Shown piece after piece: positions 18,185-36,742 of a stretch of 64,000 nucleotides of DNA (its first letter is position 1; each line of letters opens with the position of its first letter). This DNA comes from Patescibacteria group bacterium UBA6017 (GTDB taxonomy: Bacteria; Patescibacteriota; Saccharimonadia; UBA4664), in the NCBI GenBank assembly GCA_002429485.1, contig DIZX01000015.1, positions 325,488 through 389,487 on the forward strand. Reading direction: 5' to 3'. The notes beneath the pieces are model-generated. The model did no database searches. It was not told the DNA's origin and was given only the letters and a program-made list of their open reading frames with translations. Both the position numbers and the translations under genes were made by a program.

Positions 18185-18260
18185 TGGTGGGCCCGGCAGG
18201 ATTTGAACCTGCGACCAAGCGGTTATGAGCCGCCTGCTCTAACCACTGAGCTACGGGCCC
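18185..18260 (-). tRNA. tRNA(CAU), probably tRNA-Ile2 (lysidine) given C4-G69/C5-G68 and near-identity to canonical Ile2
   Basis: Reverse complement gggcccgtagctcagtggttagagcaggcggctCATaaccgcttggtcgcaggttcaaatcctgccgggcccacca: cloverleaf with CAU anticodon. Confidence 0.8.
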
Positions 18261-18306
18261 GTATCCGGAATGCGGAATAGAGCTAGTATATATTATACTT
18301 AGTCCA

Positions 18307-18690
18307 ATGAAACTTCCAAAAATAAACCTCAACGCCAATAGTGCGCTCAATTTTGTTGGCGCGGTCATAATATTCTATCTGGTGGCCGTCCTGGGCCAGA
18401 CCGTAAAACACAATTATGACCTCGGCCGGCAGATCGATGATTTGAGGACTCAAATCATCGATCTGCAGGGTCAGAAAGAGCAGCTCGTCTACAGCATTGC
18501 ATATTACAATACCGACGCTTTTCGCGACCGCGAAGCTCGGGCCAGGCTTGGATTACAGCTCCCGGGTGAAAACGTGGTCATCATTCCCCACGCCAGCCCC
18601 GCTCCGAGTGCATCGACGCAGAGCAGTAAAACCTCCGTCAAGCACTCGAACCCTCAGCAGTGGTTTGATTTCCTAACCGGCCGAATCTAG
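18307..18690 (+). CDS. FtsB/DivIC-like septum formation initiator (TM + coiled coil)
   Basis: N-terminal TM followed by a heptad-like coiled coil (LGRQIDDLRTQIIDLQGQKEQL). Confidence 0.5.
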   Translation: MKLPKINLNANSALNFVGAVIIFYLVAVLGQTVKHNYDLGRQIDDLRTQIIDLQGQKEQLVYSIAYYNTDAFRDREARARLGLQLPGENVVIIPHASPAPSASTQSSKTSVKHSNPQQWFDFLTGRI

Positions 18691-19826
18691 CTCAGCGCTC
18701 GTGCGCGATTAGCCGCAATAACCATGCCGCCGATTGCCCAGATTGCCGTCGACAGGCCGAAAAATCCGCCAATCAAGGGCAGCCACGCCGCTAGCGCGAC
18801 TATCGGCACTCCAGCCAGGGCGGCGAGCGCCAGTCCGCGGCGATCATCATCCACTTGCTGCAGAATTAACCTGCCCACCGTCACTCCCGCAAACCCGGCC
18901 GAGGTCACCAGCGCCAGCACCCACAATGTACCAAGCACCAATGCTATCGGCAGGCCCACCACGGTTATCGCCAGAAATACCAAAACCATCGGGCCGGCGA
19001 TTACCGTCAGCGCTCCCCAGCCGATGCTAGCCGACCAGCGCGTGCGCATTGTGCCCGCCACACTGCCTATCAGCCTCGGCGCCAACCATATTGCCACCAG
19101 TACGCCCAGTAAGGTCGCCACTATCGAGTACAGCAGCGTGCCTAGCCGGTCGGCTACGGTCGTGCTCCGAGTTGCCGCCCGGACTGGTGCGTGCCTAGCT
19201 ACTTGCCCCTGAATTTTCGACTTATCGAGAGCAAATGTATTGTCGCTAGTGTAGTCCAGATTGCCCGTCACGGCAGCACCGCCTCCGAGGGTCAGAGTCT
19301 GCGCCTCCGCCGTAACGCTCCCGCCAACCGTAGAGTTGATCGCCAGTGTTCCGGCACCAGCATACACCGCTTGCCCCACAGAGCCGTTTAGAGTGGCCGT
19401 CTGCGCCCCCACAGCCACATCTCCGCCAACCTTAGCGTTGCTCCCCAATACAAGGTTCTGCGCCCCCACAGTGACGTTACGAGCCACATTGCCGTTGATG
19501 CTCACGATCTGGCCTCCTGCCCGGACACTCCCGCCTACCGGGCCGTTCACGGTCAGCGTCTGTGCGCCGCACAGTACGTCGCCGCCGACAGAGCCGTTAA
19601 TTACCACCGACTGTCCGGCGCACACCACGTCGCCAGTAACATTGCCGTCGACCGTAATCGTTTGCCCGGCTACGTAGTAATTTCCGGTCCGGTTGTCGCC
19701 CTTCGCCAGGGTTACATCCGTCGCGGCGCTCTGTGTGGCTGCTAACGCCACGGCCGGAACCGCCAGAGCCATAATTAAACCTAATAGAATACCGATTCTT
19801 CTCATTGCAGCTCTCCTTTTCGTCAA
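18687..19826 (-). CDS. secreted beta-helix-repeat (bactofilin/DUF583-like) protein with a C-terminal polytopic membrane anchor
   Basis: Signal peptide; more than 10 tandem roughly 18-aa repeats GxVxGDV/VxINGxV; 4-5 C-terminal TM helices. Confidence 0.55.
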   Translation of the reverse strand: MTKRRAAMRRIGILLGLIMALAVPAVALAATQSAATDVTLAKGDNRTGNYYVAGQTITVDGNVTGDVVCAGQSVVINGSVGGDVLCGAQTLTVNGPVGGSVRAGGQIVSINGNVARNVTVGAQNLVLGSNAKVGGDVAVGAQTATLNGSVGQAVYAGAGTLAINSTVGGSVTAEAQTLTLGGGAAVTGNLDYTSDNTFALDKSKIQGQVARHAPVRAATRSTTVADRLGTLLYSIVATLLGVLVAIWLAPRLIGSVAGTMRTRWSASIGWGALTVIAGPMVLVFLAITVVGLPIALVLGTLWVLALVTSAGFAGVTVGRLILQQVDDDRRGLALAALAGVPIVALAAWLPLIGGFFGLSTAIWAIGGMVIAANRARALS

Positions 19827-19900
19827 CCTATTATACGCCCTTTTATAGCTTCCATCATTGACCGGTCCGCCTCAATCTGGTATGTTATACGCTGTTACAC

Positions 19901-19976
19901 CGCGGGGTGGAGCAGCTGGCAGCTCGTTGGGCTCATAACCCAAAGGTCGTAGGTTCGAATCCTACCCCCGCTACCA
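19901..19976 (+). tRNA. initiator tRNA-fMet (CAU)
   Basis: cgcggggtggagcagc...ttgggctCATaacccaa...: C1 mismatch, three consecutive G-C pairs in the anticodon stem; near-identical to the canonical bacterial initiator. Confidence 0.85.
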
Positions 19977-20084
19977 AGAACTAATCCAAAATTGAGACGA
20001 GCGCTCCAGTGTGGGCGCCGTTTTAATTTATAGGTAGTAATTCTTGCCTTTTCTACCTCAAACTCTTACAATTTGTACTCGTAT

Positions 20085-20159
20085 GGCTGCGTAGCTCAGT
20101 GGTAGAGCAGGAGACTCATAAGCTCTTGGTCGGTAGTTCGAATCTACCCGTAGCCACCA
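20085..20159 (+). tRNA. elongator tRNA-Met (CAU)
   Basis: ggctgcgtagctcagtggtagagcaggagactCATaagctcttggtcggtagttcgaatctacccgtagccacca. Assigned as elongator Met because it lacks the C4/C5 TilS determinants; assignment versus Ile2 is inferential. Confidence 0.75.
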
Positions 20160-28028: not shown

Positions 28029-28793
28029 ATGAATTTGGTTATCCAAGGCCTTTTAACCCAGTATCTGGACGAAGGCGACCGGCGTAGCCCCGTGGTGCTT
28101 ATACTCCATGGGTGGGGTACTGACGCCAAAAACTTTGATTCCCTGGCGGCCTATCTGGCTGGGGATTTTCGAGTCTTGCGCCTCGATCTGCCCGGTTTTG
28201 GGGGCACCGAGGCACCCGCCGGCGCCTGGCGTGTCCGTGATTATGCGGAATTTGTCGCCCGCTTCCTGGAAAAACTCAATATTATTGAACTCCGCGGTGT
28301 CATTGGGCACTCATTTGGCGGTCGGATAGTCATCAAGGGTCTGGCCGAGGGTATTCTAAGCGCCCGTCAGGCGGTATTGATTGATTCGGCCGGCATTACC
28401 CACCCCAAGACCATGCGTGTTCAGGTTTATGGGCTGGTGGCTCGGATTGGCAAACGGTTGCTGGCGCTTCCGGGTATTAGCAAGTTCGCTCCCGGCCTGC
28501 GTCGTCGACTCTACCGGTCAGCCGGCAGCACCGATTATCTGGAGTCCGGGAACTTGCGCCGCACCTTCCTGAACGTCATCAATGAAAATCTCGCCCCGGC
28601 CGCTGCTCGCATTACCGTCCCAACCTTTATCGTTTGGGGTGCCGATGATCTGGACACCCCACCGTCCGACGGCCGAATCCTCGCCAACCTGATCCCAAAT
28701 TCCAGCTACTCCCTAATCGCCGGCGCCGGGCATTTCGCCCATAACGATGCCCCCGACCGGGTTAACCCCTTAGTCAAAGAGTTCTTACGATGA
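28029..28793 (+). CDS. alpha/beta-fold hydrolase
   Basis: Nucleophile elbow GHSFGG; HGWG oxyanion region; C-terminal His. Confidence 0.7.
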   Translation: MNLVIQGLLTQYLDEGDRRSPVVLILHGWGTDAKNFDSLAAYLAGDFRVLRLDLPGFGGTEAPAGAWRVRDYAEFVARFLEKLNIIELRGVIGHSFGGRIVIKGLAEGILSARQAVLIDSAGITHPKTMRVQVYGLVARIGKRLLALPGISKFAPGLRRRLYRSAGSTDYLESGNLRRTFLNVINENLAPAAARITVPTFIVWGADDLDTPPSDGRILANLIPNSSYSLIAGAGHFAHNDAPDRVNPLVKEFLR

Positions 28794-30220
28794 AAAAGTT
28801 TCTTAGTAGTTTTGACCCCAAGTTTGCCGCCTCGCTCGTTTATATGCTCCAGGCCAGCGAATACGACGCTCGCGAATATCTGGGTTGGTTCTGGCGAGCC
28901 AAGGATTTTCGGACCGTCGCCAGCCGGGGCCAGCTTGATCGCACGCTCAAAGCCAGATTGCTCTTGGGCTTTACCTATTTCGCCATGTTATCTGAGGCGC
29001 TCGCACTGGCCTTCGCGCTCATTCAAGCTTTCGCCCAACCCGTCTGGCTCATCGCCGCCGCCATCCTGATCTGTCTTTCGCCGCTGATATCGGCGTACTC
29101 GCTGGTGGCGGTACTCTGGCTTGGCCGCATCACCGTTCAGTCTCGCCGTGAACGGGCAGCTATCGCTCGGGCTCGGGCAACCCTCGGTCACCACCCCGGG
29201 ACGCGAATTGCTATCGCCGGGAGCTATGGCAAAACTACCTTCAAGGAAATTCTTCGGACCATCCTTGCTGAAGCCAAAAATGTGGCCGCCACACCCGGCA
29301 ATATGAATACACCCCTCGGCATCAGCCGGTTCATTACCGATCTGAAGGGGGACGAAGATGTCTTAATTTTCGAGCTTGGTGAATACTATCCGGGGGATAT
29401 TGCTTCTCTGTGCGAACTCGTACGACCGCAAATGGGGATTATTACCGGCATCAACGAAGCCCATTTGAGCAAATTCAAAACCCTTGAGCGTACTGCCGCC
29501 GCCATCTTTGAACTCGCCGATTACCTCGGTGAGCTGCCCGTGTATAAGAACGGTGACAACCCCCTGGTTCGAGCCAAAATCGTCATCGACGACCCGTTGG
29601 CCTATACTGCCGGCGGCGTCAACGGCTGGGAGGTCAGGGATGTCGTCGTCGCCGTGAATTCCACCTCGTTTACGGTCCAAAAAGATGAAGTTACTTTGGC
29701 CGTTCAATCCCAGCTCCTTGGCCGTCAAAACATTGGTCCGCTGGTTGCGGCCATCGATATTGCCCACAATATGGGCTTAACAGCAAAACAGATTATTTCC
29801 GGTATCGCCAGCACCAAACCTTACGAACACCGGATGCAGCCTCGGCGGCTCGCTGGGGCGTGGGTGATCGACGATACGTATAACGGTAATAGTGACGGTG
29901 TCAGGGCCGGATTGACCTGGCTTGCTACGATCAAGGCTGAGAGGCGCATATATGTGACGCCCGGTCTGGTAGAGCAGGGGAGCCAAACCGCCGAAGTTCA
30001 CCGCGGGATCGGCGCACAGATAGCCCCAGTCGCAGATATGGTAGTGCTGATCAAAAACTCGGTCACCAAATATATTCAGGAGGGCCTGGCGGACAGGCAC
30101 TATGCCGGCGAGCTTATTATCGTGGATGATCCGATGAATTTTTATCTGAATCTCGAACACTTTGTGGCTGCCGGAGATGTGGTGCTGATGCAAAATGATT
30201 GGACCGATAACTACGCCTAA
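28790..30220 (+). CDS. murF: Mur ligase family protein (MurF-like) with an unusual N-terminal roughly 130-aa transmembrane region
   Basis: P-loop IAIAGSYGKTTFKE and Mur ligase middle/C domains. The N-terminus has 2-3 TM helices instead of the usual N-domain. Follows ddl. Confidence 0.65.
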   Translation: MKKFLSSFDPKFAASLVYMLQASEYDAREYLGWFWRAKDFRTVASRGQLDRTLKARLLLGFTYFAMLSEALALAFALIQAFAQPVWLIAAAILICLSPLISAYSLVAVLWLGRITVQSRRERAAIARARATLGHHPGTRIAIAGSYGKTTFKEILRTILAEAKNVAATPGNMNTPLGISRFITDLKGDEDVLIFELGEYYPGDIASLCELVRPQMGIITGINEAHLSKFKTLERTAAAIFELADYLGELPVYKNGDNPLVRAKIVIDDPLAYTAGGVNGWEVRDVVVAVNSTSFTVQKDEVTLAVQSQLLGRQNIGPLVAAIDIAHNMGLTAKQIISGIASTKPYEHRMQPRRLAGAWVIDDTYNGNSDGVRAGLTWLATIKAERRIYVTPGLVEQGSQTAEVHRGIGAQIAPVADMVVLIKNSVTKYIQEGLADRHYAGELIIVDDPMNFYLNLEHFVAAGDVVLMQNDWTDNYA

Positions 30221-30291
30221 TTACGCTTAAGCTTATTGACTTTAACGCCCGTTTTAGCCATTGTTAAGTTACTAAGTGGAAATTTCTCAGG

Positions 30292-32055
30292 ATGCAACTT
30301 CGCGCCCATCATCTTGTCGTATCTTTGTTTACCGGTGCGGTTGTACTCGGATCTCTCGCCGTCCTCACAGTAAATCCGCGGACTGCACAGGCTGCCTGCG
30401 CGACCGGCTCGAGCGTCCTTATCACCAGCCCTGCCAATACCGTCACCGGCACCACTCAAACAGGCGTCATTAATCTCTCGGCCTATTCCACCCCCATTGC
30501 GGCCAGCAGCCTCAGCTTTGTATTACTGCCATCTACCGCCACAACCACCCAGCAACCCATTGGTATGGCTACTTTGAACGGGTCTCAGTGGGTTTTGAGC
30601 TGGGACTCCCGCAACCAGCCAAATGGCACGTATCAGCTTATGGCGGTGGCACATTTCGGCACTTCTACCACTCAGGACTGTGCCAGCTCGTTGGTCCCTC
30701 TTAGTGTCTACAACCTCGCTACCCAGGCGCCACTGCTCGAAGGAGCCATTACCCCCAATACTTGGCAGGGGCCATTGGGCTCGAGCGCTCCGTTTAGCCT
30801 CGATGCCTTGTATACCGACCAATACGGCCGCAAGTCCCACGTTAGCCCAGCAAGTGTAAATTGGCATTCTCCGTTTGGTGCAACTTTGCCAGTTAGCGCC
30901 AACCCTACCGTCTTCACAGCCGGCGCAGTCGGTTCAGGCCCGCTCACGGTGGCTTTCTCTTATAATAGTTTGGCGGCTACCGCGATTGCCCAGGTGAAGG
31001 TAAGTGCACCCACAACAACAGCCACCGCTTCCCCGACCCCAACCCCGACTCCGAAGCCTAGCTCCTCCCCCTCGACTGTAAACACAGCCTCCACTGAGCC
31101 AACTCCAACCCCTTCGCCGGTGAGCGCCGCCGACGCCACGCGCCTGGCCGCCATGCCAACCATTTTTCGTCCCACCGCTCCTACCAACTCCGATCCGGTA
31201 GTGAACATCCCAACCCTGAGCTGTCTTGAGATCGCCTTGGGCAAAGTCCGTTTTAGCGAAATCTCTGGCGGCAAGAGCCAGCCGACCGCGGCTGAACGCA
31301 AGCTTGCTGCGGCCTGTTTCTCCGGCGCCGAGCCCATCCCGTCGGTCTTGGCGCCAATCGCGCCCGCCAATCTTACCGAGTTGGATTCTACTACCGATAT
31401 TGTGTCGCTCACCAGTATCGATAATCACACCACGACCGCCAAGAACGGCAAAACGGTCAAAGGTCTGCTGCTTAGCGGCAAGGGTTCTCCAAACTCGAAT
31501 ATTTTCATCTACGTCTTCTCCGACCCGTTAGTGCTCAGGGCCGAAACAGACAGCCAGGGCTCCTGGAAGTACGTTCTCGAAACCCCTCTCAAGGCAGGCC
31601 ATCACGAAGTCTATGCCGTAGCGGAAAAAGACGCCGGCAACTTTGTTCGCACCTCAGCCGTGCCCATCACGATCGCTGCGGCTGCCCAGGGTAGTCAGGA
31701 CGGCAACCTTGTCGTGGAGGGCAAGTGGTCCACCGCCCAGATCGGCTTCGCGGCCGGCGCCGGCGTCCTCGTTCTGGCTGCCTTTGGCGTGCTGTTTACA
31801 ATCATGCGCCGCCGACGGCCAGCCGCCCTCGTTGCTGCCGACACCGTTCACTCGGTTTCAAGCGCCGCCTCGGCACCGGGACCGCTTCCCGGGCTTATCC
31901 AGCCCAATGCGCCCGCAGCTGCCCCGGCCGCCGAGGTCGTTCCCGCGCCGCCAGTCCCTACTCCGCCCGCCACTCCCGCCGCCCCCGCTACCATCGATCC
32001 CGCAGCCGGTCCTAGTCAGCCCACCGAGCCGACCTCCCATGACGCTCAAGTTTAA
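30292..32055 (+). CDS. cell-surface protein: signal peptide, Thr/Pro-rich linker, C-terminal TM anchor and Pro/Ala-rich cytoplasmic tail
   Basis: Signal peptide; TPTPTPKPSSSPS linker; TM segment GFAAGAGVLVLAAFGVLFTIM followed by RRRRP. Confidence 0.5.
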   Translation: MQLRAHHLVVSLFTGAVVLGSLAVLTVNPRTAQAACATGSSVLITSPANTVTGTTQTGVINLSAYSTPIAASSLSFVLLPSTATTTQQPIGMATLNGSQWVLSWDSRNQPNGTYQLMAVAHFGTSTTQDCASSLVPLSVYNLATQAPLLEGAITPNTWQGPLGSSAPFSLDALYTDQYGRKSHVSPASVNWHSPFGATLPVSANPTVFTAGAVGSGPLTVAFSYNSLAATAIAQVKVSAPTTTATASPTPTPTPKPSSSPSTVNTASTEPTPTPSPVSAADATRLAAMPTIFRPTAPTNSDPVVNIPTLSCLEIALGKVRFSEISGGKSQPTAAERKLAAACFSGAEPIPSVLAPIAPANLTELDSTTDIVSLTSIDNHTTTAKNGKTVKGLLLSGKGSPNSNIFIYVFSDPLVLRAETDSQGSWKYVLETPLKAGHHEVYAVAEKDAGNFVRTSAVPITIAAAAQGSQDGNLVVEGKWSTAQIGFAAGAGVLVLAAFGVLFTIMRRRRPAALVAADTVHSVSSAASAPGPLPGLIQPNAPAAAPAAEVVPAPPVPTPPATPAAPATIDPAAGPSQPTEPTSHDAQV

Positions 32056-33406
32056 TCAGCAGCGCCTCGAAGTCGCTTATTCGATATTTTTGGTAATCCT
32101 GATACCGGCCGTCATCGTGGCCGGCACGGTCTGGCTCACCAGCCAAATCAAGAGTGATTTTGATCTCGAATTGCGCCGCAAAGCCAACCTAGCCAATGAG
32201 GTCTTCGGCATTTCGGCGACCAATATCATGAACGCCAACAGTCCCAGCCAAGCGGCAATATTACTGCAGCAACTCGTCGATCAGGCTCGTTCCCAGGCGC
32301 CCGAGATCGATCAGCTCAGCATCGTCAGCTCGAGCGGTACGGGCTTTCGTACCCTAGCTAGCTCGGATACCGCCAAGGTCGGTCAGACCGACACCACCAT
32401 CCAGACTCAGCTCGCTTGGTCAAAAGGGCAATCCATCGCCAGCTTGATTGCCTCGGGCGAGGGCAATGACCGTGAATGGCTCGTAGCAACCCCGCTTATC
32501 GGCTCCGGTGGTCAGCCGTCCGCCATTTCAATCATGCGCGTATCGTTGCACTCTTCCGATGAACTCATTGGTACCACTCTGCGCAATTCCTTTATCGGCC
32601 TCAGTATTATGGTAATAATCATTATCCTGCTGCTTCTCAACCATTTCCGCTTCGTCCAGTACGCCGAGCTCTTCCGCGCCCAAAAAGACCTCAACCAAAT
32701 GAAGGACGACTTTATCAGTATTGCCACCCATGAGCTAAAAGCGCCTATGAGTGTCATCAAGGGTTACCTTTCTATGGTTCTTGAGGAAGATGATCTATCC
32801 AAAACCGCCCGTGAAATGACTACTATTGCCCAGGACCAAACCAACCGCCTGACGCGGCTGGTCACCGACCTACTCGATGTTTCCCGGTTGGAGCAAGGCA
32901 AAACCAAGTATCATCTCAGTCCGGTTAATCTGGCTGCCACTATCGGACCGATGATTAATACTTACGAGGCAAAGGCCAAATCAAAAGGGCTAGCCCTCGT
33001 CTATCAACCGCCCGCCGAGCTGGCATCCGTTATGGCCGATCCGGACCGTGTTAGTGAAATTTTCACCAATCTCATCGACAACGCCATTAAATATTCCCGT
33101 ACCGGCACTGTCACCATCAGTCACGCCACCGCCCCGGGTGTGCTCGCCACCACAGTTAAAGATACCGGCATTGGGCTTACCCCGGATGAAGTCTCGCATT
33201 TGTTCGCCCGCTTCTATCGGGCTAAAAACCTCGATACTCGGGACATCGAGGGTACCGGCCTCGGGTTGTGGATCATCAAGCAGTACATCGAGAAAATGGG
33301 CGGTACCATCGCCGTGGAAAGTGAAAAGGGGGTAGGCTCACAATTTATTGTCACCCTGCCAGTTGCGCCCACGCTCAACGCGTCATCAGCCCAATCCTTG
33401 ACTTAA
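32039..33406 (+). CDS. sensor histidine kinase (orphan; no cognate RR adjacent)
   Basis: TM helix; H-box ATHELKAPMSVIKGY; HATPase N/G boxes (IDNAIKYS, GTGLGLWIIK). ATG 32039 overlaps the upstream stop; the track 5' extension to 31643 is rejected. Confidence 0.8.
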   Translation: MTLKFNQQRLEVAYSIFLVILIPAVIVAGTVWLTSQIKSDFDLELRRKANLANEVFGISATNIMNANSPSQAAILLQQLVDQARSQAPEIDQLSIVSSSGTGFRTLASSDTAKVGQTDTTIQTQLAWSKGQSIASLIASGEGNDREWLVATPLIGSGGQPSAISIMRVSLHSSDELIGTTLRNSFIGLSIMVIIIILLLLNHFRFVQYAELFRAQKDLNQMKDDFISIATHELKAPMSVIKGYLSMVLEEDDLSKTAREMTTIAQDQTNRLTRLVTDLLDVSRLEQGKTKYHLSPVNLAATIGPMINTYEAKAKSKGLALVYQPPAELASVMADPDRVSEIFTNLIDNAIKYSRTGTVTISHATAPGVLATTVKDTGIGLTPDEVSHLFARFYRAKNLDTRDIEGTGLGLWIIKQYIEKMGGTIAVESEKGVGSQFIVTLPVAPTLNASSAQSLT

Positions 33407-33909
33407 ATTCAATAATATGCTACTCTGCAAAATACTCTTTAACAACAAAGCCTTTGCGTAGCGGTAATTAGCCTCGACCTGCGAGCCTAGCTACTGCTAC
33501 GTAACGTAGCGATTAATTTGTGCGCGGTTCTCGTTCGTTCGCCCCCTCGGACGATACTTGAGCTGTGCCTGCGGTAGCAGTGTTGACCCTGAAGTGCAGA
33601 CTTTTTGTACGGATGGTGACCACTGTCACGCACCTTGCTGGGGTGTGGGACGGCGCTTTTGCGGGCGCCTCTACGACAGCCAGGACGGGATTAGCCACTT
33701 GTTTGCTTGCGAAATTCTCGTGAGTAAACAGCTAATTTTTCGAGACTCACCTCTCGGAATACGCCGCTTGAGGCGTTCCCAACCTGAAGTGATCTGAGAG
33801 GATACCGCCGCTGGGGTTGCTCCCGGACGCGGTGTCTGTGCCCCTCCCAGATTATCTAGACTCGACCGCACATCGAGGCAGTGCACGGATCTCCGACTGT
33901 TCAGTAAGT

Positions 33910-34259
33910 GGAGATTAACTCGGGTAAGTGCGGCACCGTGAACATACGGTGCCAGCTAACTCAATATAATCAGGATTTGGTCCGCAAACCACTTTCTGAG
34001 GGCAATCGGCTTGTCCGGACTGGTCATTTTGACAGGAACTATAGCCGATGAGGAGCTGCTGTAATGTGTCCCCGAGGACACGAAGCTCCAATAACCAAAC
34101 CAGGATGGGCTGGTTCGCTTCAAAAGTCGCGAGACTTTAGTCGACGAGGGCTACTGCCCTAGCGGACATTCGTCCGTGTCGATTCTCGTTTTCAGGGTCG
34201 GGCTCCCATCAGCCCCCACCTTTCCTTCTATCCGGCGGTCACCGCCGGATCCGAGCCCC
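33910..34259 (+). ncRNA. candidate structured ncRNA (tmRNA-like features; unverified) ending AAGCUCCACCA
   Basis: No coding potential. The 3' end aagctccacca is followed immediately by an intrinsic terminator (34260-34280). A short ORF-like stretch ends in UAA (34062-34064) just ahead of a hairpin (gtgtcc-ccga-ggacac). The 5' boundary is uncertain. Confidence 0.25.
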
Positions 34260-34280
34260 AAGCTCCACCAGAGCCTAGGG
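34260..34280 (+). terminator. intrinsic terminator
   Basis: agagcc-tag-ggctct followed by ttttc. Confidence 0.7.
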
Positions 34281-34923
34281 CTCTTTTTCTTTGATTTTTC
34301 TTCCCCAGCCGGGAAGATCTCCGGTACGCATGGACATGAAAAAGCGGACCGAATCTTCGGTCCGCCAGGGCGGATGGGGCTGAGCCATGCGGCCCAGCCC
34401 CCAACTTTCTTGATGTTTCCAGTGCCTCCTAGTCTAGTTCGCCGGGCCTCGGAATCTGCTTCGGGTTTGGGTGGGTGCGCCTCCACGCAGCCCGTTTTCG
34501 TTCTCGATCAACAGCCGCAGCCATCTGCTCCGGCGTACGGGCTTTGCGTGGAGGGGATTTTCTTGGGTGGTTAGGATCTGTTGTCAGCATCCTGAGGGAG
34601 GGCAGGTAAAAAGGCATCGCATACCTCTTTCTTGGAGTGCGGGTCGTTTCTTCGGTCCGCCGCTAGAAACGCACATCTGGCGGTGGGACCAGCTGTCCTG
34701 GGTGGGTGCGGAACCATTCCTCTCGCCGATTTGCGGACTTCTTGTCCGCGGCTCGTTGCTCTGGCGTACGGTTGTCGGGTGGCGGAGCAACGACCGGGTC
34801 GCCGTCACATCTCGACCAATCACCGGAATAGCGTGTGCCAATGACCATTTCATCCCTCCATAAGGTGCGGGCCGGCCGGGTTGGCCAACATAAACGCAAT
34901 CTTAAAAATCTTTTCGAGATTTG

Positions 34924-34952
34924 TCAAGCCCGTACTCCGCCTGTATAATCAA
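34924..34952 (+). promoter_or_regulatory. sigma70 consensus promoter for lepA (TTGTCA-17-TATAAT)
   Basis: atTTGTCAagcccgtactccgcctgTATAATcaac, 6 nt upstream of the lepA GTG. Confidence 0.7.
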
Positions 34953-34957
34953 CTACT

Positions 34958-36742
34958 GTGAACCAACCCCATACCCGAAATTTTTGTATCATCGCGCATA
35001 TCGACCATGGTAAGTCTACCTTGGCCGATCGCATGCTCGAGCTCACCGGCACCGTCCACAAGCGAGACATGCAGGCCCAACTCCTCGATTCTATGGATCT
35101 CGAGCGCGAAAAAGGCATTACCATCAAGCTCCAGCCCGTGCGCATGGCCTGGAAAGAACATCGTCTCAACCTCATCGACACCCCCGGACACGTCGACTTC
35201 AGCTATGAGGTCTCGCGTAGCCTCGCCGCCTGCGAGGGCGCTGTGCTGGTGGTGGACGCCTCGCAGGGCATCCAGGCACAAACCCTGGCCAACGTCTACC
35301 TCGCCATCGAGGCCGGCCTTACTATCATCCCTGTACTCAACAAAATCGACCTGCCTGCTGCCGATCCGGAGCGCGTGGCCGGCGAAGTGGCCAGCCTCCT
35401 CGGCGTCGACCCCGATACCATCCTGCGCGTCTCCGGCAAAACCGGCGCCGGCGTGCCTGAGCTCCTCGATATGATTGTCGAAAAAGTCCCGCCTCCGTCC
35501 GGCGATCCCGAAGCCCCGTTGCGCGCCCTCGTTTTCGACAGCGTCTTCGACGACTACCGTGGCGTCATCCTATTTGTGCGCATCGTCGACGGCCAGCTCA
35601 AGCGCCACGACACCCTGAGGCTCATCAACGCCGCCACCGACGGCCTGGCCGTGGAAACTGGCATGTTCGCGCCCAAGCAAACCGCCGTTCCATTGCTCGA
35701 AACTGGCCAAATCGGTTATGTGGTCACCAACCTCAAATCCATCGCCGAAGCCCGGGTGGGGGACACCGTCACGCTCAGCGCCAACCGCGCCGCTGAAGCT
35801 CTTCATGGTTACCGCCAAGTCAAACCCTTTGTTTTCGCCGGCTTTTTCCCTACCAGTAACGAGCAATACCCCGCCCTCAAAGACGCTCTCGAAAAACTCA
35901 AGCTCAACGACGCCGCCCTCATCTACGAGCCCGAATCTTCCCAGGTGCTCGGCTTCGGCTACCGCGTTGGCTTCCTCGGTCTGCTGCATCTCGACATCAT
36001 CAAGGAGCGCCTCGAGCGCGAATACGGCCTCGATATGGTAGTCACCAGCCCCAGTACCGACTACATCGTGCGTAGCCACGACGGCACCGAACGCACCATC
36101 CGCTCCGCCGCTGACCTTCCCGATCCCAGCTACATCGAAGAAGTCCGAGAGCCCTGGATCACTGGTGAAGTCGTGGTCCCCGGCGACTACATCGGCGGCG
36201 TCATTCAGCTCGTCAACCGTATCCGCGGTATCCAGAAAAACCTTACCTACGTCGACGAAAAACTCGCCCTCATCGCCTTCGACGCCCCTCTCGCCAATGT
36301 CCTCACCGACTTCTATGACTCACTCAAATCCATTACCAGCGGCTACGGCAGCTTCAACTATGAGCTCGCCGCCTATCGCCGCGAAGAATTAGTCCGCCTC
36401 GACATCCTCGTCGGCGGCGATATGGTCGACGCGCTCTCCCTGATCGCCCACAAAGACGAGGCCTACCGCGCCGGCAAGCAGATCGTCGAAAAGCTCAAAA
36501 CCCTCATTCCCAAGCAAAACTTCGAAGTTTCCCTCCAAGCCGCCATCGGGGGCAAAATCATTGCCCGCGAAGACGTGAAAGCCGTGCGTAAAGACGTTAT
36601 CGCCGGCCTCTACGGCGGCGACGTAACCCGCAAAAATAAGCTCCTCGATAAACAGAAAAAAGGCAAAAAGCGCATGAAACGCGTCGGTAAATTCGACATC
36701 CCCGCCGAAGCCTTCATGATCCTCGTCAGCAAGGATAGCTAA
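34958..36742 (+). CDS. lepA: elongation factor 4 (LepA)
   Basis: IRNFCIIAHIDHGKSTLADR G1 motif, DTPGHVDF, and the conserved LepA C-terminal domain. GTG start. Confidence 0.95.
   Translation: MNQPHTRNFCIIAHIDHGKSTLADRMLELTGTVHKRDMQAQLLDSMDLEREKGITIKLQPVRMAWKEHRLNLIDTPGHVDFSYEVSRSLAACEGAVLVVDASQGIQAQTLANVYLAIEAGLTIIPVLNKIDLPAADPERVAGEVASLLGVDPDTILRVSGKTGAGVPELLDMIVEKVPPPSGDPEAPLRALVFDSVFDDYRGVILFVRIVDGQLKRHDTLRLINAATDGLAVETGMFAPKQTAVPLLETGQIGYVVTNLKSIAEARVGDTVTLSANRAAEALHGYRQVKPFVFAGFFPTSNEQYPALKDALEKLKLNDAALIYEPESSQVLGFGYRVGFLGLLHLDIIKERLEREYGLDMVVTSPSTDYIVRSHDGTERTIRSAADLPDPSYIEEVREPWITGEVVVPGDYIGGVIQLVNRIRGIQKNLTYVDEKLALIAFDAPLANVLTDFYDSLKSITSGYGSFNYELAAYRREELVRLDILVGGDMVDALSLIAHKDEAYRAGKQIVEKLKTLIPKQNFEVSLQAAIGGKIIAREDVKAVRKDVIAGLYGGDVTRKNKLLDKQKKGKKRMKRVGKFDIPAEAFMILVSKDS

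What the first reader, a model, noticed from the sequence alone, without database searches (positions are those of the whole stretch)
34300..34900. Degenerate tandem duplication with two paralogous Arg/Pro-rich mini-ORFs on the minus strand
Within the non-coding gap two segments share ordered motifs: ttcttcggtccgcc at 34355 and 34637; gggtgggtgcg at 34463 and 34700; and tgctcYggcgtacgg at 34527 and 34758. The minus-strand ORFs 34663-34899 (78 aa) and 34429-34617 (62 aa) encode similar peptides: ...PPPDNRTPEQRAADKKSANRREEWFRTHPGQLVPPP against ...SPPRKARTPEQMAAAVDRERKRAAWRRTHPNPKQIPRP. The shared skeleton is RTPEQ-AA-(10)-W-RTHP-(4)-P-P. Peptide-level conservation with synonymous-type divergence points to real (or recently real) small protein genes in tandem. 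They could be remnants of an integrated element next to the candidate ssrA-like RNA, or a small basic protein family such as a nucleic-acid-binding factor.
Basis: seen in the sequence. Interest (0 to 1): 0.55.

Follow-up and report, generated by a model that had tools for sequence, protein, structure and literature searches.

The report
Tandem pair of tiny orphan genes
Two neighbouring, distantly related genes for ~60-residue proline/arginine-rich proteins, found only in one narrow lineage of Saccharibacteria, look like real but fast-evolving accessory genes of unknown role; this is a modest curiosity, not a new kind of system.

Summary
The repeat and the two minus-strand mini-ORFs are real. 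They form one compact transcription unit. It has a sigma-70-like promoter (34927-34899), ORF B (34848-34663, 61 aa, SD GGAGGG), a decayed internal hairpin, ORF A (34617-34429, 62 aa, SD AGAGG), a conserved 3' hairpin and an intrinsic terminator (34366-34339).

The window comes from a Saccharibacteria (TM7) genome. A related species carries one homologue (58 aa) at the same locus, between lepA and a histidine kinase. That comparison supports coding:
- only the proposed frame is open in all three copies;
- all indels are multiples of three;
- third-position differences are in excess (P=0.01);
- dN/dS is about 0.2.

Copy A is more diverged, and its current function is less certain.

Searches of 1.8-5.8 billion proteins, Pfam, PHROGs, NCBIfam, PADLOC, the PDB and viral collections found no other relatives. 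No tmRNA lies nearby. AlphaFold predicts one TPEQ-capped helix between polyproline segments.

The locus varies between relatives. One lacks it, another carries an extra orphan 205-aa gene, and 4 of 5 substitutions against a near-identical strain fall inside ORF B. The function is inferred only: a small helical binder, possibly of RNA.

The parts
34899..34927 (-). Sigma-70-like promoter of the mini-ORF unit (TTGACA-17-TAAGAT). Its -35 hexamer overlaps the -35 hexamer (TTGTCA, 34921-34926) of the divergent lepA promoter.
   Evidence: 10 of 12 matches. The -35 hexamer is identical in L082 and the -10 there is TAAACT. This is a consensus match only; no transcript data exist.
34860..34898 (-). 5' untranslated leader. 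It is about 92% identical to L082, far more conserved than the coding sequences.
   Evidence: alignment. In L082 the same leader and SD precede a different first gene (205 aa).
34854..34859 (-). Shine-Dalgarno GGAGGG of ORF B, 5 nt before the ATG.
   Evidence: Read from the sequence and the alignment.
34663..34848 (-). Mini-ORF B: 61 aa plus stop. MVIGTRYSGDWSRCDGDPVVAPPPDNRTPEQRAADKKSANRREEWFRTHPGQLVPPPDVRF
   Evidence: called as a gene on L001. (homologue P0002, 55% identity). (frame-specific conservation, dN/dS about 0.2 against the L082 copy). (helix 29-48).
34639..34661 (-). Degenerate copy of the terminator hairpin, directly after the stop of B. It has no T-run and weak folding, so read-through into A is expected.
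   Evidence: family D2, 83% identical to the real terminator. (-12.8 kcal/mol, z = -0.67).
34624..34628 (-). Shine-Dalgarno AGAGG of ORF A, 6 nt before the ATG.
   Evidence: Read from the sequence. It aligns with the SD/ATG region of B.
34429..34617 (-). Mini-ORF A: 62 aa plus stop. It is the more diverged paralogue and has lost both PPP motifs. MPFYLPSLRMLTTDPNHPRKSPPRKARTPEQMAAAVDRERKRAAWRRTHPNPKQIPRPGELD
   Evidence: A and its downstream flank are collinear with the L082 gene and its flank. A keeps 18 of 31 residues shared by B and the L082 copy, against 7 of 25 at variable columns (P = 0.023). A was never called as a gene on L001.
34376..34401 (-). 3'-UTR hairpin (11-bp stem, GCAU loop). 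It is identical to L082 at 26 of 26 positions.
34339..34366 (-). Intrinsic terminator (10-bp GC-rich stem plus UUUUU) that ends the unit.
   Evidence: It is conserved in L082, where the stem is kept and the loop is changed.

Best explanation
The segment is a short two-gene transcription unit on the minus strand of a Saccharibacteria genome. It encodes two paralogous orphan proteins of about 7 kDa that arose by tandem duplication of a whole cassette (SD, ORF, 3' UTR, terminator). The internal terminator has decayed, so one promoter and one terminator now serve both genes.

Each protein is predicted to be soluble and mostly extended. It has a single charged alpha-helix of about 20 residues. The helix starts at a TPEQ capping box, carries invariant Arg, Trp and His, ends at HP, and is flanked by proline-rich segments (PPP in B and in the related species' copy).

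The family is confined to one narrow lineage. It sits in a variable islet between a histidine kinase gene and lepA, and it evolves fast.

Shown: the anatomy, the homology and the coding-type constraint. Inferred: the proteins act as small binding or adaptor factors through the helix. The most plausible partner is RNA or another acidic partner, in the manner of arginine-rich-motif peptides. Their role is accessory (strain-variable), not housekeeping. Copy B is the better-supported functional gene. Copy A is either a diverging functional paralogue or in early decay.

The confidence given (0.75) applies to 'real tandem small protein genes in one transcription unit'. The binding mechanism alone would rate about 0.25.
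For: **Organism and synteny**
- The lepA loci of the closest relatives are Saccharimonadia/Saccharibacteria MAGs.
- The syntenic locus L082/L083 (lepA about 87% nt identity, kinase 78%) carries one 58-aa homologue.

**Expression signals**
- There is a promoter and a terminator, and an SD plus ATG for each ORF.
- The L082 copy has AAGGAGG 7 nt before its ATG.

**Coding constraint**
- The gene frame is the only one of six open in A, B and the L082 copy. It gives the highest similarity scores: 80, 149 and 106.
- Peptide similarity is 9-20 sd above shuffles. The DNA similarity was reached by 3 of 1000 shuffles.
- In DNA-only MAFFT alignments every indel is a multiple of 3. B against the L082 copy shows 18/17/32 differences at codon positions 1/2/3 (P = 0.010).
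- Nei-Gojobori dN/dS for B against the L082 copy is about 0.19-0.26.
- A preferentially retains the residues conserved between B and the L082 copy (P = 0.023).

**Duplication of a whole cassette**
- SD/ATG, the core and the hairpin repeat in the same order.
- The internal hairpin is degenerate.

**Structure**
- AlphaFold2 gives a helix at 29-48 with pLDDT about 87. The N-terminus is disordered.

**Accessory and fast-evolving character**
- L002 (lepA 96% aa identity) lacks the region.
- L082 has an extra orphan 205-aa gene and only one mini-ORF.
- 4 of 5 substitutions over 6.4 kb against the near-identical contig L001 fall inside ORF B (P about 3e-6). Three of them are non-synonymous.
Against: - Codon usage of all three mini-ORFs scores like spurious off-frame ORFs and below 99% of real-gene windows of this genome. 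Part of this reflects the odd Arg/Pro-rich composition.
- Only three sequences exist, dS is saturated, and the dN/dS values are rough.
- For A against B and A against the L082 copy, the codon-position bias is not significant (P = 0.37 and 0.16).
- A was not called by the gene finder on L001.
- The UTR elements are more conserved than the coding regions, so part of the selection may act on the RNA.
- Conserved residues do not cluster significantly on one helix face (P about 0.25).
- There is no expression or proteomic evidence.
- The binding function is pure inference. B is nearly neutral (pI 8.0).
Confidence: 0.75

Rival explanations
1. Only ORF B is a functional gene. ORF A is a decaying duplicate (a young pseudogene) that happens still to be open.
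For: - A has lost both PPP motifs and both termini differ from B and the L082 copy.
- Differences involving A are spread evenly over codon positions: 29/33/34 and 23/23/30.
- A was not called as a gene on L001.
- A 62-codon open frame has roughly a 10% chance of staying open at this GC content (my estimate).
- A's codon-usage score is the lowest of the three.
Against: - A keeps its SD and ATG.
- All indels against B and the L082 copy are in frame.
- A retains the B/L082-conserved residues preferentially (18 of 31 against 7 of 25, P = 0.023).
- The internal terminator has decayed in a way that allows A to be co-transcribed.
Confidence: 0.3
2. The repeat is functional at the RNA or DNA level only (duplicated regulatory or terminator module, or sRNA). 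The ORFs are by-products of GC-rich sequence.
For: - The 5' leader and the 3' hairpins are much better conserved than the ORFs.
- Codon usage is indistinguishable from that of spurious ORFs.
- Arg/Pro-rich off-frame ORFs give spurious matches: the ruvA off-frame hit at E = 4e-5.
- The transcript folds somewhat better than shuffles (z = -3.3).
Against: - Peptide-level similarity far exceeds DNA-level similarity.
- Only one frame is open in all three copies.
- All indels are multiples of three and third positions carry the excess of change.
- dN/dS is about 0.2.
- Each ORF has its own SD at the correct spacing.
Confidence: 0.1
3. The ORFs are regulatory stalling peptides. Their polyproline runs pause ribosomes (EF-P dependence) near the ORF end. 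This controls the folding of the downstream hairpins or terminator, or the translation of the next cistron. The peptide product itself is irrelevant.
For: - PPP is rare in this genome's proteins (6 in 13,380 aa). It occurs twice in B and two to three times in the L082 copy, at conserved places; the second lies 4 codons before the stop.
- Hairpins follow each stop codon.
- The unit shares its -35 region with lepA, a translation factor gene.
Against: - Nothing lies downstream to regulate. The unit ends at a terminator and meets a convergent transcript.
- The conserved residues lie mainly in the helix (RTPEQ, W, R, H), not only in the Pro runs.
- A has lost both PPP motifs.
- Sixty codons is long for a leader peptide.
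Confidence: 0.08
4. The unit is a remnant or cargo of a mobile element, or a conflict module (toxin-antitoxin, anti-phage defence or anti-defence).
For: - Presence or absence varies among close relatives.
- The genes are orphans, including the 205-aa partner.
- There is a substitution hot spot.
- A small two-gene layout is typical of such modules.
Against: - There are no hits in PADLOC, PHROGs, Pfam or NCBIfam.
- There are no viral or phage homologues.
- There is no integrase, transposase, tRNA or tmRNA at the borders.
- The proteins have no hydrophobic segment, so they are not a type I toxin (GRAVY -1.1 to -1.9).
- The two genes are paralogues of each other, not a toxin/antidote pair.
Confidence: 0.12

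Closest known systems
Lineage-restricted small ORF-encoded proteins (orphan sORFs) in accessory islets of bacterial genomes
   Same: - They are about 60 aa with no detectable homologues outside a narrow clade.
- They have their own SD and promoter.
- They are strain-variable and fast evolving.
- Their codon usage is atypical.
   Different: Here there is a tandem paralogous pair with a clearly conserved motif: P-P-x(2-4)-RTPEQ-x-[AD]-A-x(7)-R-x(2)-W-x-R-x-H-P...Q-x(0-1)-[IV]-P-x-P. The flanking UTR elements are unusually conserved.
Arginine-rich-motif (ARM) RNA-binding peptides such as phage lambda/P22 N (from my own knowledge, not tested)
   Same: Both have a short Arg-rich alpha-helix with a conserved Trp (compare RERKRAAW and RRRQAW here). 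Stable RNA hairpins lie on the same transcript.
   Different: There is no sequence homology. The net charge is much lower (B about +1). The helix is embedded between polyproline segments. No antitermination context or nut-like site has been identified. Binding is untested.
Polyproline (PPP) EF-P-dependent stalling sequences and leader peptides
   Same: Two strong PPP(D) motifs occur within 61 residues, are conserved between species, and one lies close to the stop codon.
   Different: There is no downstream gene to regulate. The paralogue A lacks PPP. The helix residues are conserved too.
NDUFB8 N-terminal segment (weak PDB profile hits)
   Same: A short RTPEE-RAAA-like stretch is shared (E = 0.04-0.4, 14-18 bits).
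   Different: The hits are not significant and come from a eukaryotic mitochondrial complex I accessory subunit. I regard this as a chance, low-complexity resemblance.

Membership tests
Any curated protein family (Pfam-A, NCBIfam, PHROGs, PADLOC) | Profile match at or near the curated threshold | tested here: not met
   The best hits have E >= 0.076 and 11-14 bits, far below the cut-offs.
   ARAGORN finds 4 tRNAs, none within 10 kb, and no tmRNA. Rfam gives no hit at E <= 1 in 32500-36000 and only tRNAs at the gathering threshold.
Protein-coding gene (generic) | The reading frame is preserved across homologues: open frame, in-frame indels, excess third-position change, dN/dS below 1 | tested here: met
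   The result is strong for B against the L082 copy and weaker for A.
Protein-coding gene (generic) | Codon usage typical of the host genome | tested here: not met
   Per-codon scores are -0.15 to -0.26, against a mean of 0.35 for real genes. This lies inside the distribution of spurious ORFs.
Bacterial sigma-70 transcription unit | -35/-10 hexamers upstream, and a GC-rich hairpin with a T-run downstream | tested here: met
   (10 of 12 promoter match; 10-bp stem plus TTTTT). Both are conserved in L082. These are consensus matches only; transcription has not been observed.
Arginine-rich-motif RNA-binding peptides | A short, strongly basic helix that binds a cognate RNA hairpin | not testable with these tools
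   A helix is predicted. Basicity is moderate (pI 8.0-11.4).
Toxin-antitoxin or defence two-gene module | Two different partner proteins with recognisable toxin/antitoxin or defence domains | tested here: not met
   The two genes are paralogues of each other. There are no PADLOC or Pfam hits.
Diversity-generating retroelement target (considered because of the substitution hot spot) | A template/variable repeat pair differing at adenines only | tested here: not met
   The repeats are only about 50-60% identical. The four strain differences on the coding strand are C>A, A>C, A>C and C>T, and none match copy A. I did not search for a reverse transcriptase.

The most novel reading that the evidence does not exclude
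The cassette is an RNA-protein device, not just two orphan genes. In this reading, the Arg/Trp helix of the mini-proteins binds the perfectly conserved hairpin in their own 3' UTR, or the adjacent highly structured, unannotated ~780-nt RNA candidate that converges on it. Polyproline-dependent ribosome pausing tunes the cassette's output. It is wired back-to-back with the lepA promoter, so it would report or modulate translational status in a genome-reduced episymbiont.
Probability: 0.06. Interest if true: 0.6.

Novelty: new member of a known kind. Interest (0 to 1): 0.3.

Why it matters
Saccharibacteria have tiny genomes and live on other bacteria. Their strain-variable orphan genes are candidates for host interaction or conflict functions, and almost none are characterised.

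This locus offers a clean, small example. It is a real, duplicated, fast-evolving mini-protein gene with defined expression signals and a simple predicted structure. It could be synthesised and tested directly.

In itself it is an ordinary kind of finding: a lineage-specific small-protein family. It does not open a long-standing question.

The more intriguing elements are by-products:
- the strongly conserved UTR hairpins;
- the neighbouring structured non-coding region;
- the substitution hot spot inside ORF B.

Tried and rejected
**Searches for more homologues**
- Searches run: two word-index searches, one exhaustive HMMER search of 1.84 billion representatives, a metagenome contig scan, a viral contig scan, a phage tblastn, and six-frame hmmsearch of all 84 fetched loci. 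They returned only P0001 (same species), P0002 (L082/L083) and one doubtful locus.
- The doubtful locus, L084, carries DARTPEQRAAD in a 195-aa phage-like protein. It scores only 22.7 bits against the family profile, which would be E of about 10 in the large library. The pattern scan forced that match, so I rejected it as a homologue.

**The 205-aa gene that precedes the mini-ORF in L082**
- It has no Pfam, PHROG, NCBIfam or PADLOC hit and no homologue other than itself.
- It left no remnant in the window and shows no similarity to the mini-proteins.
- The AlphaFold model is unusable (pLDDT 39), so I ran no fold search.

**Ideas tested and dropped**
- Fold search of the mini-protein model was not run. 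A single helix would give meaningless matches.
- Conservation on one face of the helix is not significant.
- Gene conversion or mis-assembly from copy A does not explain the hot spot: none of the four variant bases matches A.
- The neighbouring ORF-free region is not a decayed copy of the L002 genes (MarR-like, membrane protein): tblastn gives no hits.
- The plus-strand ORFs across the repeat (34471-34863 and 34176-34574) are not conserved in L082 and carry stops in the homologous frames, so I treat them as spurious.
- A literature search for related Saccharibacteria small proteins returned nothing relevant.

Full report
**1. The observation**

The region lies in a 1.55-kb stretch without long ORFs. 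It sits between a histidine-kinase gene (ending at 33406, + strand) and lepA (34958-36742, + strand).

The two minus-strand ORFs exist. Their peptides align at 44% identity over 36 residues (E = 5e-7).

In shuffling tests the DNA local alignment is only moderately unusual: 3 of 1000 dinucleotide shuffles reach it. The peptide alignment is about 9.7 standard deviations above composition-preserving shuffles, with 0 of 5000 reaching it.

One caution applies. Peptide A also matched an out-of-frame stretch of ruvA at E = 4e-5 when composition correction was off. Pairwise scores for Arg/Pro-rich ORFs are therefore inflated and needed independent support.

**2. Anatomy**

Read on the minus strand, the unit runs as follows.

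| Element | Coordinates | Notes |
|---|---|---|
| Promoter | 34927-34899 | TTGACA-17-TAAGAT; its -35 overlaps the -35 of the divergent lepA promoter (TTGTCA-17-TATAAT, 34921-34949) |
| Leader | about 34898-34860 | about 40 nt |
| SD of B | 34859-34854 | GGAGGG |
| ORF B | 34848-34663 | 61 aa |
| Hairpin remnant | 34661-34639 | 83% identical to the real terminator; no T-run; folds no better than shuffles |
| SD of A | 34628-34624 | AGAGG |
| ORF A | 34617-34429 | 62 aa |
| 3' hairpin | 34401-34376 | strong 11-bp stem |
| Terminator | 34366-34339 | canonical intrinsic terminator |

The 78-aa reading of B begins at a TTG inside the -10 hexamer and is therefore unlikely. A gene caller also chose the 61-aa form.

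SD, ATG, core and hairpin all repeat in the same order. The simplest history is therefore tandem duplication of a complete cassette, followed by decay of the internal terminator. The result is a bicistronic unit.

**3. Organism and relatives**

The lepA loci fetched from reference genomes place the window in Saccharibacteria (Saccharimonadia, Patescibacteria/CPR). The best match is a MAG at 96% LepA identity, followed by 70-79% matches to Saccharimonadales MAGs.

Four comparisons are informative.

- **(a) L001.** This JGI metagenome contig is 99.7% identical to the window over 6.4 kb. Its differences are 13 single-base indels, probably sequencing errors, and 5 substitutions. Four of the five substitutions lie inside ORF B; three change the protein and one is silent. 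The chance of that clustering is about 3e-6. None of the variant bases matches copy A, so gene conversion or paralogue mis-assembly does not explain it.
- **(b) L082/L083.** These contigs come from a related species (lepA about 87% nt identity, kinase about 78%) and carry the same locus. The conserved promoter, leader and SD are followed there by an orphan 205-aa gene. Next comes a single 58-aa homologue (P0002), with AAGGAGG 7 nt before its ATG. After it lie the same two 3' hairpins.
- **(c) L002.** Its LepA is 96% identical, but homology to the window starts only 15 nt before lepA. A MarR-like gene and a small membrane-protein gene occupy the place instead.
- **(d) L003 and L004.** In these more distant relatives, lepA follows the homologue of window genes at about 25.3-26.5 kb. 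About 8.5 kb, including this locus, is therefore lineage-specific.

**4. Is it coding?**

Evidence for coding:
- Across A, B and the L082 copy (C), the proposed frame is the only one of six without stops in all three. It also gives the highest similarity scores: 80, 149 and 106. The codon-mirrored antisense frame comes second but is full of stops.
- MAFFT alignments made on DNA alone place every indel as a multiple of three: 12, 6 and 3; 6, 12 and 6; and 3. All aligned bases stay in the same frame.
- For B against C, differences fall 18/17/32 on codon positions 1/2/3 (P = 0.010).
- Nei-Gojobori gives pN = 0.31 and pS = 0.71, so dN/dS is about 0.19. dS is saturated, so the ratio is rough.
- A keeps 18 of the 31 residues that B and C share, but matches either of them at only 7 of 25 variable columns (P = 0.023). 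A has therefore been under the same constraints for at least much of its history.

Evidence against coding:
- Codon usage of all three ORFs looks like that of spurious ORFs of this genome.
- Comparisons involving A show no significant codon-position bias.
- A was not called as a gene on L001.

My reading is that B and C are genuine genes. A is a diverged paralogue whose present function is uncertain.

**5. What the protein looks like**

The invariant skeleton is P-x3-PP-x(2-4)-RTPEQ-x2-A-x7-R-x2-W-x-R-x-H-(x0-2)-P-x-Q-x(0-1)-[IV]-P-x-P.

AlphaFold2, run on the four-sequence alignment, predicts one helix at residues 29-48 with pLDDT of about 87. The N-terminus is disordered and the flanks have no regular structure. 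TPEQ is a typical helix N-cap, and HP terminates the helix; both statements rest on my own knowledge.

There is no hydrophobic segment (GRAVY -1.1 to -1.9). The pI values are 8.0 (B), 9.7 (C) and 11.4 (A).

PPP runs are rare in this genome's proteins: 6 in 13,380 residues. Three of those six lie in the histidine-kinase ORF as listed from its TTG at 31643; that part may be an untranslated N-terminal extension. By contrast, PPP occurs twice in B and two to three times in C at conserved positions, and not at all in A.

Conserved residues do not cluster significantly on one helix face.

**6. Relation to known families**

Nothing matched in Pfam, NCBIfam, PHROGs or PADLOC. The PDB profile search gave only insignificant hits to the NDUFB8 N-terminus.

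The following searches found only the same-species protein, the L082 copy and one pattern-forced, non-significant phage-like match (L084, 22.7 bits):
- two searches of 5.8 billion clustered proteins;
- one exhaustive HMMER search of 1.84 billion representatives;
- a metagenome scan;
- a viral scan;
- a phage tblastn.

There is no tmRNA or tRNA next to the locus, so the 'ssrA-linked integrated element' idea is not supported.

The 205-aa partner gene in L082 is itself an orphan with an unusable structure model.

**7. How it most likely works**

Shown: a conserved transcription unit, duplicated small genes under coding constraint, a single-helix architecture, presence/absence variation between relatives, and a local substitution hot spot.

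Inferred: the products are small cytoplasmic binding factors. An Arg/Trp/His-bearing helix presented between stiff polyproline arms is the kind of element that docks onto RNA or onto an acidic protein surface. Arginine-rich-motif peptides are the nearest functional analogy. This is an analogy only, with no homology and no test.

The unit's UTRs are better conserved than its coding parts. The leader is about 92% identical to L082, and the 3' hairpin is identical at 26 of 26 positions. The transcript itself, or the DNA as part of the lepA upstream region and as a convergent-transcription insulator, is therefore also under selection.

The rivals are set out with their tests in the Rival explanations section: A as a pseudogene, an RNA-only function, a polyproline stalling leader, or a mobile/conflict module.

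**8. Verdict**

The family is new in the sense of being unannotated and without relatives. It belongs, however, to a familiar category: lineage-specific, fast-evolving small orphan proteins in a variable islet. Interest is modest at 0.3. The neighbouring ORF-free, strongly structured region and the conserved UTR hairpins may deserve a look of their own.

Noticed in passing
window 33512-34292 (+): This ~780-nt ORF-free stretch lies between the kinase terminator and a + strand intrinsic terminator (34270-34284). It folds far better than shuffles (MFE -332.8 kcal/mol, z = -7.1 on +, -5.1 on -). It has no Rfam hit at E <= 1 and no tmRNA by ARAGORN. It is partly conserved in L082 (about 63% identity over 34554-33910, which also spans part of ORF A and its 3' UTR; 75% over 33525-33397).
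   Followed up: partly
window 34663-34848 versus L001 374-559: Four of the five substitutions between the window and a 99.7%-identical metagenome contig (6.4 kb) fall inside ORF B: T5K, D25A, E44D and one silent change. P is about 3e-6. Copy A does not explain them. This may reflect diversifying selection, a recombined allele or population heterogeneity in the assembly.
   Followed up: partly
window 34921-34949 (+) and 34927-34899 (-): The lepA promoter and the mini-ORF promoter are back to back and share overlapping -35 hexamers (TTGTCAA). RNA polymerase binding at one may therefore exclude the other. The -35 and the leader are conserved in L082.
   Followed up: partly
window 34376-34401 (-) and L082 2197-2222: The 3'-UTR hairpin GGGGCUGGGCC-GCAU-GGCUCAGCCCC is identical at 26 of 26 positions between species, while the adjacent ORFs are only about 60% identical. 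It may be a functional RNA element or the core of a 3'-UTR-derived sRNA.
   Followed up: partly
L082 1327-1944 (+): An orphan 205-aa gene sits between the conserved leader/SD and the mini-ORF in the related species. It has no homologues in 5.8 billion proteins and no family hits, and the AlphaFold model has pLDDT 39. It is absent from the window without any remnant.
   Followed up: yes
L002 821-2071: The closest reference MAG (LepA 96% identical) has a short fused stub here. The stub joins the N-terminus of the surface protein to a C-terminal kinase motif. It is followed by a 126-aa membrane protein and a MarR-like regulator, in place of the window's 30.4-34.9 kb segment. This could be a deletion or replacement, or an assembly chimera.
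   Followed up: no
window 28762-35219 versus L001: All 13 indel differences are single extra bases in L001. They split its kinase gene into two called genes, which points to homopolymer-type sequencing errors in that metagenome contig, not real variation.
   Followed up: no
window 30292-32055 and 31643-33406 (+): Two ORFs, each listed at 587 aa, overlap by about 400 nt. The kinase ORF's TTG start at 31643 is probably an artefact of the first-start rule. The real start is likely near 32060, after the surface-protein gene.
   Followed up: no
window 34531-34544 and 34926-34939: A 14-nt inverted repeat (93% complementary) links the RTPEQ-coding core of ORF A with the spacer of the lepA promoter. 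It is probably chance.
   Followed up: no
window 18185-20159: Three tRNA-Met (CAT) genes lie within 2 kb, one on the opposite strand.
   Followed up: no
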